64,000 nt of DNA. It comes from Acipenser ruthenus (lineage: Eukaryota). Position numbers: made by a program. The stretch's first letter is position 1, and every line of letters begins with the position of its first letter. Shown one piece after another: positions 27,301 to 31,732 of this stretch. Where the stretch lies: assembly GCF_902713425.1 (NCBI RefSeq), contig NC_081214.1, positions 11,008,641-11,072,640 of the forward strand. The letters are read 5' to 3'.

Positions 27301-30300
27301 GAAATGAAAGAACTGCACAGAAGCTGTACTGCGCAGGAAGCATTGCTATTAGAGCTTCGGGTACAATTTGAAATGAGCAAAAAATGCACCCAGGGAGGCA
27401 CTGGTGAACCTAAAGCGAAGAAAGGTATACTTGCCAACTTAAGAGCCACTGTTGGCTCGCCTGCTAAACTATCCAAGAAAACTGTTGCAAGCACATCAAG
27501 CTCTACCAGAAAGAGGGGCCTGTTCAAGAAAATGGTGGTAATATGTGTATGGATTTTGTTTTTAATGTTTGTCTTATCAGAAATGCAATAAATATTTAAG
27601 TTTTTGTTTGGTTTCTATTTCCACAAGATAGGTCACCTTGGAAAATTCCCCTGCCCCCCCCCCCTCAAAAAACTTGCAATGAATCTCCTCCTACTGGCTG
27701 AGTTATTAATATCAGTATTGCCGCTTGACTGAATTTGATTTCGGTGTGAATAGTAAGATCATCTATCGGTTTTGCATAATAAATATTTAGATGTCTTATT
27801 TAGCATCTTGTAATCAAATAAAATATGAAATGACAACACAAGTCTATTGGAAGCCATACTAGTACAGTATTTAATGTTAGATTTTGAAATGTCACTAACA
27901 GGGTGAGATTTGTACTGGCTGTCTGATGCATGCATGATCCTGCAGAAGGAGCTCGGGAGCCCTGAAGGGTCTGCCTGTCAATCATGGCAGTGACATGGAG
28001 AGGTTGGGTGAGGGCTCGCTTGCTCGCTCTCTCTCAGTGGTCGGGAGGTGGGCCTTCAGGAGTGCTCGACCTATAAAACTAATGCTCTGCTATTCCTCAG
28101 GTCTGCCCCATTAGGAAGCATAATGGTGGGAGCTCTGGTCGGAAACTGCGGTCCAGACCCTAATAAAACCCCAGTGTCTGGAGCGAGGAGAGACAGACAG
28201 GCAAGCCAGGCAGAGGAAGACAGCCGTGCATAGAAGACCAGACAGTCTTAACACTAGCACCGCCACAACCACTTTTTGAACGGCTTTTGCAATTCAAATT
28301 TGCATTTCTCCGCGTATGTGAATATCTCGTTGTGGCAAAGTGCCCCGCCCCTGTGTGCATTTGTGTGTTCTATGTTGTATGTATGCGTGCGTATGTTAAT
28401 GTTGGTGTATAGATTGGTACACGGGATATAAACGGGTCTGTGTTTCACGTGTATTTAAAAAGTGTAGATTTGTATTTAGGCACGAGGAGAGCACAAATCA
28501 CTTCACGTGCTGGTTAAATGTAATATGTGAGCACGGGGTTGCACAGAATTAATTCACGTGCTGGGATTCAAGTGAATAATTAATTAGTAATTGAATCCCA
28601 GCACAATAGTATATATAGACGCACATTTCTTGCACTCAGGGTTGGGTGTTCGGAAGAGGAGAACGGGTGAGAGAGAGAGGAGAAACTAGAAAGTAAAATC
28701 GTAAACGTAAAGTGTTTGTTCTCACCGTGTCTGTTTGTCTGTCCGTGCACCGTTTGTTTAGTGTTAGTCGTTTTGTATGTCTGTTTATTTTGGCGCAAGT
28801 GCCGTGTCCTGTTTTGTGCTGTTTTCAACCCTTTTATTTGTTAATAAACGCTGAGTGCAGCCATTGCACTCAGCTCATCACAACCACTGTCTGTGTTTGG
28901 ATTCCTTTCTGGTCTGACGCAACCCACTCTGGCCGTCTTTGTGACACGTGGTGTCTTCGTGGGATAGCCGCGCCTCCAAGCGTCAGACCAGGAGGGGTCT
29001 GGATTAAAAAAAAAAATATATATATATAAAGGATTACAAATATTGTTTTTGGGGGAAAAAAAAGAAGAAAAAAAGTAAATGGCAGAAGACGCCATCAAAC
29101 TGCGGGGCTGGTTCCTGGAGAATGCTGGGCTGGAGGCCCAGTCTCTGCCCATAGTCGTCCGGGCCCTGTGGATGATGGACAGTGAGAGATGGGAGGCCTA
29201 TCAGGAGGAACACACCCCAAACACCTTGGAGGAAGGTGTGGAGTTTGTCCTCAGCTACCTGGAGGCAACCATAAATGGAACAGCAGCCCAGGTAGCAGGA
29301 CCACCAGCAGAGGAGTACCTGCTGTCCCCATCTCCACCAGCAGAGGGTGAGTATCTGCTGTCCCCATCTCCACCAGCAGAGGGTGAGTACCTGCTGTCCC
29401 CATCTCCACCAGCAGAGGGTGAATGCCTGCTGGTTTTGCCTCCACAGCCCAAATGGGAGGAGCCTGAGCATCCACAGCCCAAATGGGAGGAGCCCAAGCG
29501 GAAGGAGCCCGAATGTCCTACGCCTGAGTGGGAGGAGCCCGAATGTCCTACGCCTGAGTGGGAGGAGCCCGAACGTCCTACGCCTAAGTGGGAGGAGCCC
29601 GAACGTCCTACCCCTGAGTGGGAGGAGCCCGAACGTCCTACGCCTGAGTGGGAGGAGCCCGAACGTCCTACGCCTGAGTGGGAGGAGCCCGAACGTCCTA
29701 CGCCTGAGTGGGGGGAGCCCGAACGTCCACAGCCCAACAGGGAGGAGTCGGGGCGTCCACAGCCCAACAGGGAGGAGTCGGGGCGTCCACAGCCCAACAG
29801 GGAGGAGTCGGGGCGTCCACAGCCCAACAGGGAGGAGTCGGGGCGTCCACAGCCCAACAGGGAGGAGTCGGGGCATCCACAGCCCAAAAGGGAGGAGTCG
29901 GTGCGTCCACAGCCCAAAGGGAGGCAAGTCGGGGCTTCCACAGCCCTGGGACCCAAGCCACCAGCAGAGAGAAAATGCCTGCTGGTTCAGCCCCAAGAGC
30001 CGGAAGGGGAGGGGTTACAGGCTCAACCCCCTGAAAATTTTTGGGGGGGAGAAGGGCAGGATGCTGGTGTTCCCCAGCAGCCTCTCGCTATGCTGCTGAA
30101 GGCAGCACGGTGCGCACATGCCCAGCCGCCACAGCAGAGGGAGCCAGCACCGCCAGGAGCAGAGGAGCTGGAGCTGCCTCTGCCTCCACCACCACCAGGA
30201 GCAGAGGAGCTGGAGCTGCCTCTGCCTCCACCACCACCAGGAGCAGAGGAGCTGGAGCTGCCTCTGCCTCCACCACCGCCAGGAGCAGAGGTGCTGGAGC

Positions 30301-31732
30301 TGCCTCTGCCTCCACCACCGCCAGGAGCAGAGGAGCTGGAGCTGCCTCTGCCTCCACCACCGCCAGGAGCAGAGGAGCTGGAGCTGCCTCTGCCACCACC
30401 ACCGCCAGGAGCAGAGGAGCTGGAGCTGCCTCTGCCTCCGCCACCGCCCGGAGCAGAGGAGCAGGAGCTGCCTCTGCTGCCCGTACCTCCGCAGGGAGTA
30501 CGGTGGCCGGAGCCCCAGAAAGGGGAGCTGCCGGCCACGAAGAAGGGGGAGGAGGTCTGGAGACCACTTTCCCCAGCAGCAGTTTCGCTGCAGGAGTTCT
30601 TGTGGCCGGAGCCCCACAGGAGGGAGCTGCCGGCTGCGAAGAAGGGGGAGGTCGGGGGACCACCCGCCCCCGCAGCTTTTTCGCTGCAGGACGGGACCAG
30701 CATGCTGTCAGCCGTGCCACTACCGGCAGGGGAGCTGACAGCATTGCCAGCCATGGGCCTACTGAAGCCTCCCTTCCCAGCCCGAGACTTTGTCCTGGAC
30801 TGCTGGATTTTTAAGGGGGGAGGTGGCCGTTGAGGCCATGTGTGCTGCGCACAAGGGGGGGTATATGTGGCAAAGTGCCCCGCCCCTGTGTGCATTTGTG
30901 TGTTCTATGTTGTATGTATGCGTGCGTATGTTAATGTTGGTGTATAGATTGGTACACGGGATATAAACGGGTCTGTGTTTCACGTGTATTTAAAAAGTGT
31001 AGATTTGTATTTAGGCACGAGGAGAGCACAAATCACTTCACGTGCTGGTTAAATGTAATATGTAAGCACGGGGTTGCACAGAATTAATTCACGTGCTGGG
31101 ATTCACGTGAATAATTAATTAGTAATTGAATCCCAGCACAATAGTATATATAGACGCACATTTCTTGCACTCAGGGTTGGGTGTTCGGAAGAGGAGAACG
31201 GGTGAGAGAGAGAGGAGAAACTAGAAAGTAAAATCGTAAACGTAAAGTGTTTGTTCTCACCGTGTCTGTTTGTCTGTCCGTGCACCGTTTGTTTAGTGTT
31301 AGTCGTTTTGTATGTCTGTTTATTTTGGCGCAAGTGCCGTGTCCTGTTTTGTGCTGTTTTCAACCCTTTTATTTGTTAATAAACGCTGAGTGCAGCCATT
31401 GCACTCAGCTCATCACAACCACTGTCTGTGTTTGGATTCCTTTCTGGTCTGACGCAACCCACTCTGGCCGTCTTTGTGACACTCGTGCATGTCCATTCTT
31501 AAGTGTTACTAAATATTTGAATTAAATACACATACGGTATTTCATCTGCAGAATGAAAGCCGTGCGAGCCCCCCCTGCACTCCACTCCTCAAGCAGAACG
31601 ACTGTGCCACCCTGAGTGTGTACAGGTGTTAAAAAAAAAAAGCGTTGTAAAATGCAACAAAGTACGGTGTGGATATACTGGATCAAATGGCACGACTGTA
31701 TTCTGTCAAAGGTGATACTCGCAGGTGGCCTG

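What the first reader, a model, noticed from the sequence alone, without database searches (positions are those of the whole stretch)
28331..31481. Intact, recently inserted LTR element encoding only a 584-aa tandem-peptide-repeat protein (novel 'family A')
The 616-bp LTRs are 99.7% identical, there is a clean 5-bp target-site duplication (CTCGT), and a polypurine tract precedes the 3' LTR. The 1.9-kb internal region is almost entirely one ORF. That ORF has no protease, RT, integrase or zinc-knuckle motif. It consists of a unique ~75-aa N-terminal domain followed by four blocks of perfect tandem peptide repeats: PEWEEPERPT, PQPNREESGR, PPPPPGAEELELPL and YLLSPSPPAEGE.

At least five family members lie within 64 kb: 1-299, 15201-15852, 16257-20033, 25488-27075 and this one. 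One of them disrupts a gypsy pol and another abuts a CR1 tail. This is a non-autonomous LTR element of the LARD/TRIM kind, but it carries a conserved and presumably functional ORF of unknown role.
Basis: seen in the sequence. Interest (0 to 1): 0.7.

Follow-up and report, generated by a model that had tools for sequence, protein, structure and literature searches.

The report
Sturgeon gag-remnant non-autonomous LTR retrotransposon
This is a young, intact copy of a sturgeon-specific parasitic LTR retrotransposon that has lost all its enzymes, keeps one odd repeat-rich protein that is probably a remnant of a capsid (Gag) gene, and most likely borrows the machinery of a Gmr1-type gypsy element lying in the same window; it is an unusual variant of a known kind of mobile element, not a new kind.

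Summary
Two 616-bp LTRs (2 mismatches, 99.68%) with TG..CA ends, a 5-bp CTCGT duplication, a primer-binding site, a polypurine tract and a 584-codon ORF (29079-30833) sit at 28331-31481.

Four of the five claimed family members are real. 25488-27075 is a different, distantly related small LTR element.

All detectable homologues come from Acipenser ruthenus and A. sinensis (over 100 gene models).

The element has no pol. Its U5 end, 2-nt spacer and tRNA-Leu-type PBS (CTTTGTGACA-CG-TGGTGTC...GGGAT) match the SCAN-Gag, Gmr1-type gypsy in the same window (minus strand 5946-300). Its U3 start (TGTGGCAAAGTG) equals that gypsy's inverted U5 end.

The 75-aa N-terminal domain folds confidently (pLDDT 87, four helices). 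Profile comparison links its second half weakly but reproducibly to the last helices of the SCAN-like Gag domain. Some relatives carry CCHC knuckles.

Every tandem array in the ORFs has a period divisible by three, and the unique codons lack stops (p about 0.002). However, dN/dS is about 0.74, and incidental older copies are broken.

Best reading: a gag-remnant, TR-GAG/BHIKHARI-like non-autonomous gypsy derivative mobilised in trans.

The parts
28326..28330 (+). 5' target-site duplication CTCGT
   Evidence: Identical pentamer at 31482-31486. Other copies also have 5-bp TSDs: GGGGG, GTCAC, AGGGT, CTCAT.
28331..28946 (+). 5' LTR (616 bp), TGTGGCAAAG...CTTTGTGACA. It carries a TATA-like TATATATAGA at 28610-28619, AATAAA at 28843-28848 and a perfect 10-bp hairpin at 28850-28874.
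   Evidence: 99.68% identical to the 3' LTR. Motifs read. The U3 start TGTGGCAAAGTG is identical to the inverted U5 end of the window's gypsy LTR.
28947..28965 (+). 2-nt spacer CG plus primer-binding site TGGTGTCTTCGTGGGAT (degenerate tRNA-Leu type)
   Evidence: ACACGTGGTGTC occurs only 3 times in the window, exactly at the LTR/PBS junctions of this element, of copy 2 and of the gypsy; 0.22 expected. tRNA-Leu-CAA/CAG 3' ends are given in PMC10359600. Family B copies keep 17 of 18 nt.
29079..30833 (+). Single ORF of 584 aa (P 22.8%, E 17.6%); first ATG after the PBS
   Evidence: There are no internal stops in the 198 non-repeat codons, against 3-7 in the other five frames; 8 of 5000 shuffles are stop-free.
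29079..29303 (+). N-terminal four-helix domain (aa 1-75), probably derived from the SCAN-like Gag CA C-terminal domain
29301..30691 (+). Tandem peptide-repeat arrays: 36 nt (29301-29432), 30 nt (29444-29728), 30 nt (29724-29946), 42 nt (30144-30477), 96/99 nt (30503-30691). A conserved unique linker lies at 29947-30143.
   Evidence: TRF. All periods are multiples of 3, as in copy 2 and L007. Array content differs between copies.
30692..30833 (+). Conserved C-terminal tail ...LPAMGLLKPPFPARDFVLDCWIFKGGGGR*
   Evidence: Same tail in P0004, P0031, P0032 and P0093. Its last codons overlap a conserved purine run and stem-loop.
30806..30865 (+). Conserved 3' cis region: AAGGGGGGAGG, stem-loop GGCC-GTTGA-GGCC, and polypurine tract AAGGGGGGG (30853-30861) followed by TATA
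   Evidence: Nearly identical in copy 2, L005, L006 and L007. A similar arrangement occurs in the unrelated-family element at 26740-26815.
30866..31481 (+). 3' LTR
31482..31486 (+). 3' target-site duplication CTCGT
16257..20033 (+). Older full-length family copy (copy 2): stop codon in the N-domain, frameshifts, different repeat arrays, LTRs only 75.9% alike
15201..15851 (-). Solo LTR of the family with TSD GGGGG
1..299 (+). 3' part of a family LTR (cut by the window edge), inserted in the RNase H region of the gypsy
300..5946 (-). Candidate helper: Gmr1-type Ty3/gypsy. LTR 5946-5112, CG + PBS TGGTGTCAGACATGGGAT, SCAN-Gag/knuckle/PR to 3809, IN 3777-2128, RT-RNase H 1520-300.
   Evidence: Pfam: SCAN, zf-CCHC, Asp protease and integrase, RVT_1 and RT_RNaseH. 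Sequence. The Gag region matches human SCAN structures at E = 4e-13. The Gmr1 domain order is described in PMC8220671.

Best explanation
The feature is a young copy of a sturgeon (Acipenser) family of non-autonomous LTR retrotransposons that descend from, and are most likely mobilised in trans by, Gmr1-type Ty3/gypsy elements with a SCAN-like Gag.

Shown:
- All the cis signals of an LTR retroelement are present: LTRs with TG..CA ends, PBS, PPT and a 5-bp TSD.
- There are no PR, RT or IN domains.
- Integration was recent: 2 differences in 616 bp, roughly 0.7-3 My at an assumed 0.5-2.5e-9 substitutions per site per year.
- Several other copies and a solo LTR lie nearby.

Inferred:
- RNA is transcribed from the 5' LTR (TATA at 28610, AATAAA at 28843).
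- That RNA is packaged into particles made by the gypsy helper.
- It is primed by a tRNA-Leu-type primer at the shared CG+TGGTGTC junction.
- It is integrated by the helper's integrase, which meets LTR tips that copy its own (TGTGGCAAAGTG).

The single ORF is best read as a heavily remodelled Gag remnant. It consists of a four-helix N-terminal module related to the SCAN-like dimerising C-terminal capsid domain, and a conserved short C-terminal tail. Between them lies a long acidic, proline-rich, presumably disordered region built of tandem peptide repeats. These repeats expand and turn over rapidly but always in whole codons. This particular copy has lost the CCHC knuckles that sister subfamilies still carry.

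The most likely role of the protein is to couple the element's RNA or its own translation product to the helper's Gag during particle assembly. This last step is a hypothesis, not shown.
For: Structure: (LTRs, TSDs of 5 bp in five insertions, PBS, PPT).

No enzymes.

Link to the gypsy:
- ACACGTGGTGTC is found only at the three LTR/PBS junctions in the window, 0.22 expected. The same junction occurs in gypsy copies of A. sinensis.
- The family A U3 start is identical over 12 nt to the inverted gypsy U5 end.
- A helper-type gypsy lies in the same window, and one family LTR sits inside it.

PBS type: family B copies match tRNA-Leu-CAA at 17 of 18 nt.

Gag origin:
- hhalign of the N-domain against sturgeon Gag gives P = 1e-5 to 2e-4 and probability 49-82%. 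The same columns align with a human-only SCAN profile (score 24.2 against a null of 9.7 +/- 2.1). Permuted-column nulls reach at most 19.7 against an observed 34-36.
- blastp is colinear over 51-62 residues.
- Canonical CX2CX4HX4C knuckles occur in B-type relatives, and CX2CX3HX4C in some A-type relatives.

Coding constraint:
- The unique codons are stop-free (p about 0.002).
- All of roughly 12 distinct arrays have periods divisible by 3.
- AF2 gives pLDDT 87 for the domain from a 21-sequence alignment spanning 23-100% identity.

Precedents: TR-GAG and BHIKHARI.
Against: - No autonomous element with the same LTR was found. The LTR bodies of family A and the gypsy do not align.
- I could not obtain a gypsy 3' end, so the PPT and TSD length of the proposed helper are unknown.
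- The PBS of this copy matches tRNA-Leu only over 7 contiguous nt plus TGGGAT.
- dN/dS over 64 N-domain codons in 8 copies is 0.74 pooled, range 0.25-2.2.
- In the repeats, 4 of 6 frames are stop-free, so two thirds of the ORF length is uninformative.
- The protein is strongly acidic and lacks knuckles, which is unlike a nucleic-acid-binding Gag.
Confidence: 0.62

Rival explanations
1. The ORF is a non-functional leftover. The element needs only its cis signals, and the long open frame is a by-product of stop-poor, GC/AG-rich tandem repeats in a copy too young to have decayed.
For: - In the repeats, 4 of 6 frames have no stops, and long ORFs exist on the opposite strand.
- dN/dS is about 0.74.
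- Copy 2 and the incidental copies in L002 and L003 are broken, and L006 tolerates compensated frameshifts.
- This copy has lost the knuckle segment present in relatives.
Against: - The 198 unique codons are stop-free only in the ORF frame (8 of 5000 shuffles).
- Every independent tandem array has a period divisible by 3, roughly (1/3)^7 to (1/3)^12 by chance.
- The N-domain is kept from family A to family B at 23-30% identity, with invariant core residues and a confident fold.
- The C-terminal tail is conserved.
Confidence: 0.2
2. It is a gag-only endogenous retrovirus derivative of the BHIKHARI/ENS-1 type, mobilised by a retrovirus rather than by a gypsy element.
For: The architecture matches zebrafish Bik-1: LTRs plus one roughly 600-aa ORF whose origin was long unknown. 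A 5-bp TSD is also compatible with some ERVs. This last point rests on general knowledge.
Against: - The PBS junction and LTR tips are shared with a Gmr1-type gypsy, not with any ERV seen here.
- The only gag-like signal points to the SCAN-type gypsy Gag.
Confidence: 0.08
3. The protein acts against, rather than with, the helper. A truncated Gag with a SCAN-like dimerisation module poisons gypsy capsid assembly (dominant-negative, Fv1/enJS56A1-like logic), or it has acquired a host function as Bik-1 Gag has.
For: - The retained module corresponds to the dimerising part of Gag.
- Repeat turnover is rapid, and some pairwise dN/dS values exceed 1.
- Active gag-only elements with host roles exist.
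Against: The gene sits in a multi-copy, recently transposing element with many decayed copies, not at a fixed single locus. A helper poison would limit the element's own spread. There are no expression data.
Confidence: 0.07

Closest known systems
[quoted passage not shown] 2015, PMC4350172)
   Same: Under 4 kb, typical LTR-retrotransposon cis features, a single ORF, no pol, and evidence of recent activity (one search compared).
   Different: TR-GAGs were described in plants and have a readily recognisable GAG. Here the host is a chondrostean fish. The ORF has no Pfam gag domain, two thirds of it is tandem peptide repeats, and only a roughly 30-residue stretch shows remote Gag (SCAN-like) similarity.
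BHIKHARI-1/-2 (zebrafish gag-only endogenous lokiretroviruses; PMC12067270)
   Same: A fish LTR element with one roughly 600-aa ORF and no pol or env. It is non-autonomous, recently active and leaves many solo LTRs. The ORF's origin was obscure until structure prediction.
   Different: Bik Gag has a coiled coil and a canonical CA fold and belongs to retroviruses. Here no CA fold is detected, and the cis signals tie the element to a Gmr1-type gypsy.
Gmr1-type Ty3/gypsy elements with SCAN-like Gag (the lineage from which the vertebrate SCAN domain is thought to derive; the derivation is recalled from memory)
   Same: Shares the U5 end, 2-nt spacer and tRNA-Leu-type PBS, inverted LTR tip sequence and the host genome. 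The N-domain is probably homologous to the end of the Gag SCAN-like domain.
   Different: This element has no PR-IN-RT-RH, the LTR bodies cannot be aligned, and the Gag is reduced and remodelled.
LARD and TRIM non-autonomous LTR elements
   Same: Lacks pol and depends on a helper.
   Different: TRIMs are under about 1 kb with short LTRs and no ORF. LARDs have long non-coding interiors. This element is 3.15 kb with 616-bp LTRs, and 91% of its interior is coding.

Membership tests
LTR retrotransposon (structural definition) | Direct long terminal repeats ending TG...CA, flanked by a short target-site duplication | tested here: met
   616-bp LTRs at 99.68% identity, TGTGGC...GTGACA ends, CTCGT on both sides. 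5-bp TSDs in four further insertions.
LTR retrotransposon (structural definition) | PBS complementary to a tRNA 3' end just after the 5' LTR, and a PPT just before the 3' LTR | tested here: met
   TGGTGTC..TGGGAT lies 2 nt after the LTR. Sister copies match tRNA-Leu-CAA at 17 of 18 nt. AAGGGGGGG lies 4 nt before the 3' LTR. In this copy only 7 contiguous nt match the tRNA.
Non-autonomous LTR element | No protease, reverse transcriptase, RNase H or integrase | tested here: met
   Pfam finds nothing in the ORF at E <= 1. The internal region is only 1919 bp.
TRIM | Miniature size (under about 1 kb), LTRs of about 100-250 bp, no ORF | tested here: not met
   3151 bp, 616-bp LTRs, 584-aa ORF.
LARD | Large (over about 4 kb), with a long non-coding internal domain | tested here: not met
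   The internal region is 1.9 kb and 91% of it is one ORF.
TR-GAG | Under 4 kb with a single ORF | tested here: met
   definition in PMC4350172.
TR-GAG | The ORF encodes a recognisable GAG precursor | tested here: inconclusive
   No Pfam gag, CA or knuckle domain. hhalign to the SCAN-like Gag region gives probability 49-82% over 26-31 columns. Knuckles occur only in relatives.
SCAN / retroviral CA C-terminal domain | Significant match to PF02023 or to solved SCAN structures | tested here: inconclusive
Ty3/gypsy, Gmr1 lineage | pol with integrase upstream of RT (PR-IN-RT-RH) and RT/IN phylogeny | not testable with these tools
   The element has no pol. The neighbouring candidate helper has this order (definition). 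Only cis-signal similarity links the two.
BHIKHARI-type gag-only ERV | Gag with an N-terminal coiled coil and a retroviral CA fold; lokiretrovirus affinity | tested here: not met
   Only a 75-aa four-helix domain is predicted, and no CA match is found. The rest of the ORF was not modelled.

The most novel reading that the evidence does not exclude
A vertebrate LTR parasite has reduced its Gag to a SCAN-like dimerisation module fused to a fast-evolving, acidic, proline-rich tandem-repeat region. Selection keeps this region in frame (all repeat periods are whole codons). The protein would be a new type of transposon-encoded adaptor, or decoy, that docks onto the SCAN-like Gag of Gmr1-type gypsy helpers to hijack, or modulate, their particles. 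Repeat turnover would reflect an arms race with the helper or the host. It would also be a living parallel to the event that gave vertebrates the SCAN domain.
Probability: 0.2. Interest if true: 0.6.

Novelty: new variant of a known kind. Interest (0 to 1): 0.4.

Why it matters
Gag-only non-autonomous LTR elements are well described in plants (TR-GAG) and in one zebrafish retroviral group (BHIKHARI). There the Gag turned out to matter for development.

This sturgeon family would extend the kind to Ty3/gypsy derivatives in a basal ray-finned fish. Its protein is almost entirely tandem peptide repeats plus a small helical module that may be the SCAN-like capsid dimerisation domain.

If the helper link and the protein's role hold, the family offers a tractable case of how a parasite of a parasite keeps just enough Gag to be packaged. 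It also offers a natural experiment on in-frame repeat evolution.

There is a practical consequence as well. Pieces of this ORF contaminate more than 100 gene models in the A. sinensis annotation and some in A. ruthenus, for example models named 'proline-rich protein 36-like' and 'Serine/threonine-protein kinase 26'.

Tried and rejected
1. P0065, which appeared to join the N-domain to a Gag knuckle and protease, is a chimeric gene model. Exon 1 is a family B ORF start, and the rest is a gypsy 21 kb away. It is rejected as evidence of an autonomous relative. P0174 (repeat region plus RT) looks like a similar fusion.

3. Alignment of family A and gypsy LTR bodies shows no homology beyond the tips.

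4. Attempts to recover a gypsy 3' end (PPT, 3' LTR, TSD) failed. Loci L003, L004 and L008 hold only 5' LTRs or rearranged copies.

5. The window ORF is not on record as an exact protein, so the source assembly was not identified.

6. No tRNA-Leu gene was found in the window or the loci. tRNA sequences were taken from a paper instead.

7. Rfam finds nothing in the element.

8. Literature searches found no description of this family.

9. The pairwise Nei-Gojobori dN/dS was too noisy to decide.
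Full report
**1. Observation**

The element is as described.
- The two LTRs (28331-28946 and 30866-31481) are 616 bp each. They differ at two positions (G/A at LTR position 199, A/C at 241), giving 99.68% identity.
- They start TGTGGC and end GTGACA. The pentamer CTCGT flanks both ends.
- After the 5' LTR come CG and TGGTGTCTTCGTGGGAT.
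- Before the 3' LTR lies CACAAGGGGGGGTATA.
- The ORF at 29079-30833 (584 aa) starts at the first ATG after the PBS and fills 1755 of the 1919 internal bases.

Tandem Repeats Finder gives five arrays with periods 36, 30, 30, 42 and 96/99 nt and 81-96% matches. Pfam finds no domain in the ORF, and there is no CCHC pattern.

**2. Family in the window**

blastn with the element recovers three relatives:
- 1-299, the 3' part of an LTR.
- 15201-15851, a solo LTR on the minus strand with TSD GGGGG.
- 16257-20033, a full-length copy about 78% identical to the element.

The full-length copy is old or recombinant. Its LTRs are only 75.9% alike, its N-domain carries a stop, and the frame shifts in the repeats.

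The fifth listed member, 25488-27075, has no nucleotide similarity to the element. It is another small LTR element with:
- a PBS TGGTGGCAGCGGTG (tRNA-Leu-AAG type);
- a Pro/Glu-rich ORF that carries a stop;
- a 3' internal end and LTR start (TGTAGCACAGTG) that resemble family A.

I treat it as a distant relative at most.

The LTR at 1-299 interrupts the RNase H of a gypsy. The copy at 16257-20033 abuts a CR1-like RT C-terminal fragment.

**3. Host and distribution**

- The N-terminal 79 aa hit only Acipenser ruthenus and A. sinensis hypothetical proteins, at 70-96% identity.
- The full ORF hits 102 proteins. All are Acipenser, and many are gene models that fuse the repeat with host domains.
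- A profile search of 1.84 billion representatives found 63 proteins.

The window is therefore sturgeon DNA, and the family is abundant there.

Copies fetched from A. ruthenus and A. sinensis contigs show the same architecture:
- 5-bp TSDs: GTCAC, AGGGT, CTCAT.
- LTR identities of 95-99.8%.
- ORFs of 431-670 aa with the same N-domain, linker and tail but different arrays.

**4. Relatives with knuckles**

The weaker profile hits (family B) have the domain as SREIWDWLV..LPLAINALW.RDGEQWEAWE.QHHPASL..MVL.YLAADMG. It is preceded by MGKKS... and by canonical CX2CX4HX4C knuckles, and followed by the same kinds of peptide repeats.

- Family B LTRs are about 78% identical to family A LTRs.
- Their PBS matches tRNA-Leu-CAA or tRNA-Leu-CAG almost fully.
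- Some A-type ORFs, such as L007/P0093, carry a CX2CX3HX4C motif that this copy lacks.
- P0065, which seemed to join the domain to Gag-PR, is a chimeric gene model spanning 22 kb.

**5. The candidate helper**

On the minus strand the window holds a Ty3/gypsy element:
- LTR 5946-5112.
- CG plus PBS TGGTGTCAGACATGGGAT.
- Gag with a SCAN domain and a knuckle, then protease (to 3809).
- Integrase (3777-2128).
- RT and RNase H (1520-300).

This is the copia-like domain order that defines the Gmr1 group (PMC8220671). Its Gag matches solved human SCAN domains; ZNF24 gives E = 4e-13.

The link to family A rests on two observations:
- The U5 end, spacer and PBS read CTTTGCCACA-CG-TGGTGTC...GGGAT in the gypsy and CTTTGTGACA-CG-TGGTGTC...GGGAT in family A. 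ACACGTGGTGTC occurs in the window only at these three junctions, with 0.22 expected. It recurs at gypsy and family A junctions in A. sinensis.
- The family A U3 start TGTGGCAAAGTG is identical to the inverted U5 tip of the gypsy LTR.

The LTR bodies do not align. I could not obtain a gypsy 3' end, so its PPT and TSD length remain untested.

**6. The protein**

An alignment of 21 A- and B-type domains gives an AF2 model with pLDDT 87 and four helices.

Searches that found nothing specific:
- HMMER against Pfam and PDB finds no SCAN.

Profile-profile comparison, however, repeatedly aligns residues 34-65 with the last two helices of the SCAN-like Gag domain (QAWIRRHNPDTLEGAVKLAEDYED):
- Score 34-36, P = 1e-5 to 2e-4, probability 49-82%.
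- One hundred column-permuted controls give 11.3 +/- 2.5, with a maximum of 19.7.
- The reversed profile gives 14.8.
- A profile of five human SCAN domains alone aligns the same columns, with a score of 24.2 against 9.7 +/- 2.1.

These results are. blastp extends colinearly over 51-62 residues at weak E-values.

I regard descent from the Gag SCAN-like domain as probable but not established.

**7. Is the ORF constrained?**

For constraint:
- The 198 non-repeat codons have no internal stop in the ORF frame, against 3-7 in the other five frames. Only 8 of 5000 shuffles are stop-free.
- All distinct arrays in three elements have periods divisible by three: 24, 27, 30, 33, 36, 39, 42, 81 and 96/99. 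The two off-register spacings, 59 and 98, lie in the decayed copy 2.
- Core residues of the domain are invariant between families A and B.

Against constraint:
- In the repeats, four of six frames are stop-free.
- Nei-Gojobori dN/dS over 64 codons in eight copies is 0.74 pooled, range 0.25-2.2.
- The three copies sampled incidentally are broken.
- L006 carries compensated frameshifts.

**8. Interpretation**

The element is a non-autonomous gypsy derivative that keeps a remodelled Gag remnant and is most likely mobilised by Gmr1-type helpers. The proposed role of the protein, docking to helper Gag through the SCAN-like module, is inference.

The class has precedents in plant TR-GAG elements and in the zebrafish gag-only BHIKHARI retroviruses.

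The unusual points are the gypsy/Gmr1 affinity in a chondrostean fish, the near-total replacement of Gag by fast-turning in-frame peptide repeats, and the strongly acidic composition (P 22.8%, E 17.6%).

I found no published description of the family. Repbase or Dfam could not be queried.

Noticed in passing
window 300-5946 (minus strand): A Gmr1-type Ty3/gypsy element with the copia-like order gag(SCAN)-PR-IN-RT-RNase H. It has a stop in gag and about 550 bp of unrelated sequence between IN and RT (2128-1580). A family A LTR truncates it at 299/300.
   Followed up: partly
window 6332-6403 (+) and 6496-6569 (-): tRNA-Cys(GCA) and tRNA-Thr(CGT) genes, called by both ARAGORN and Rfam, lie 390-620 bp from the gypsy 5' LTR start. 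I did not test whether this reflects tRNA-gene targeting or chance.
   Followed up: no
window 25492-27056: A separate small LTR element. It has a tRNA-Leu(AAG)-type PBS TGGTGGCAGCGGTG at 25895, a Pro/Glu-rich ORF with an early stop, and an N-terminus (MDIAELIRTLEKS...) reminiscent of the gypsy Gag start (MDRNALAELLEALES...). Its 3' purine-run/stem-loop/PPT arrangement resembles family A. Both LTRs are truncated. A tRNA-derived SINE-like sequence lies just upstream (25300-25480).
   Followed up: partly
window 56513-63718: Another LTR element of about 7.2 kb with 790-bp LTRs (98.9% identical, TGTAATGG...CCATTACA) and a 4-bp TSD GTAT. It has no ORF over 152 aa, so it is LARD-like or degenerate. 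It is inserted in a CR1-like fragment whose uninterrupted paralogue (the empty site GTCGTATGCAG) lies at 20325-20360 in the same window.
   Followed up: partly
window 34066-35699: A Tc1/Sleeping-Beauty-type transposon. The 339-aa transposase ORF (34287-35306, minus strand) has HTH_Tnp_Tc3_2, HTH_SB and DDE_3 domains. It is flanked by 219-bp inverted repeats that are 97.7% identical, so the copy may be intact.
   Followed up: no
window 28446-28560 and 30981-31110 (U3 of the LTRs): Three CACGTG E-box motifs lie in the 5' LTR, two of them within a repeated TTCACGTGCTGG. One of the two LTR differences (A to C at LTR position 241) creates a fourth in the 3' LTR. A perfect 10-bp hairpin follows the AATAAA signal (28850-28874).
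   Followed up: no
L004:22260-22723 and L003:16430 (minus strand): Further sturgeon LTR elements of other families share the ...ACA-CG-TGGTGTC junction. One has a 16-nt match to the tRNA-Leu-CAA 3' end, followed by an unannotated 122-aa ORF. The junction therefore marks a wider group of elements.
   Followed up: no
Proteins P0013, P0027, P0095-P0102, P0174 and others: Many A. sinensis gene models, and some A. ruthenus RefSeq models, fuse pieces of this transposon ORF to host domains (ADAM, kinase, Ig, TPR and others). These are annotation artefacts caused by the unmasked family.
   Followed up: partly
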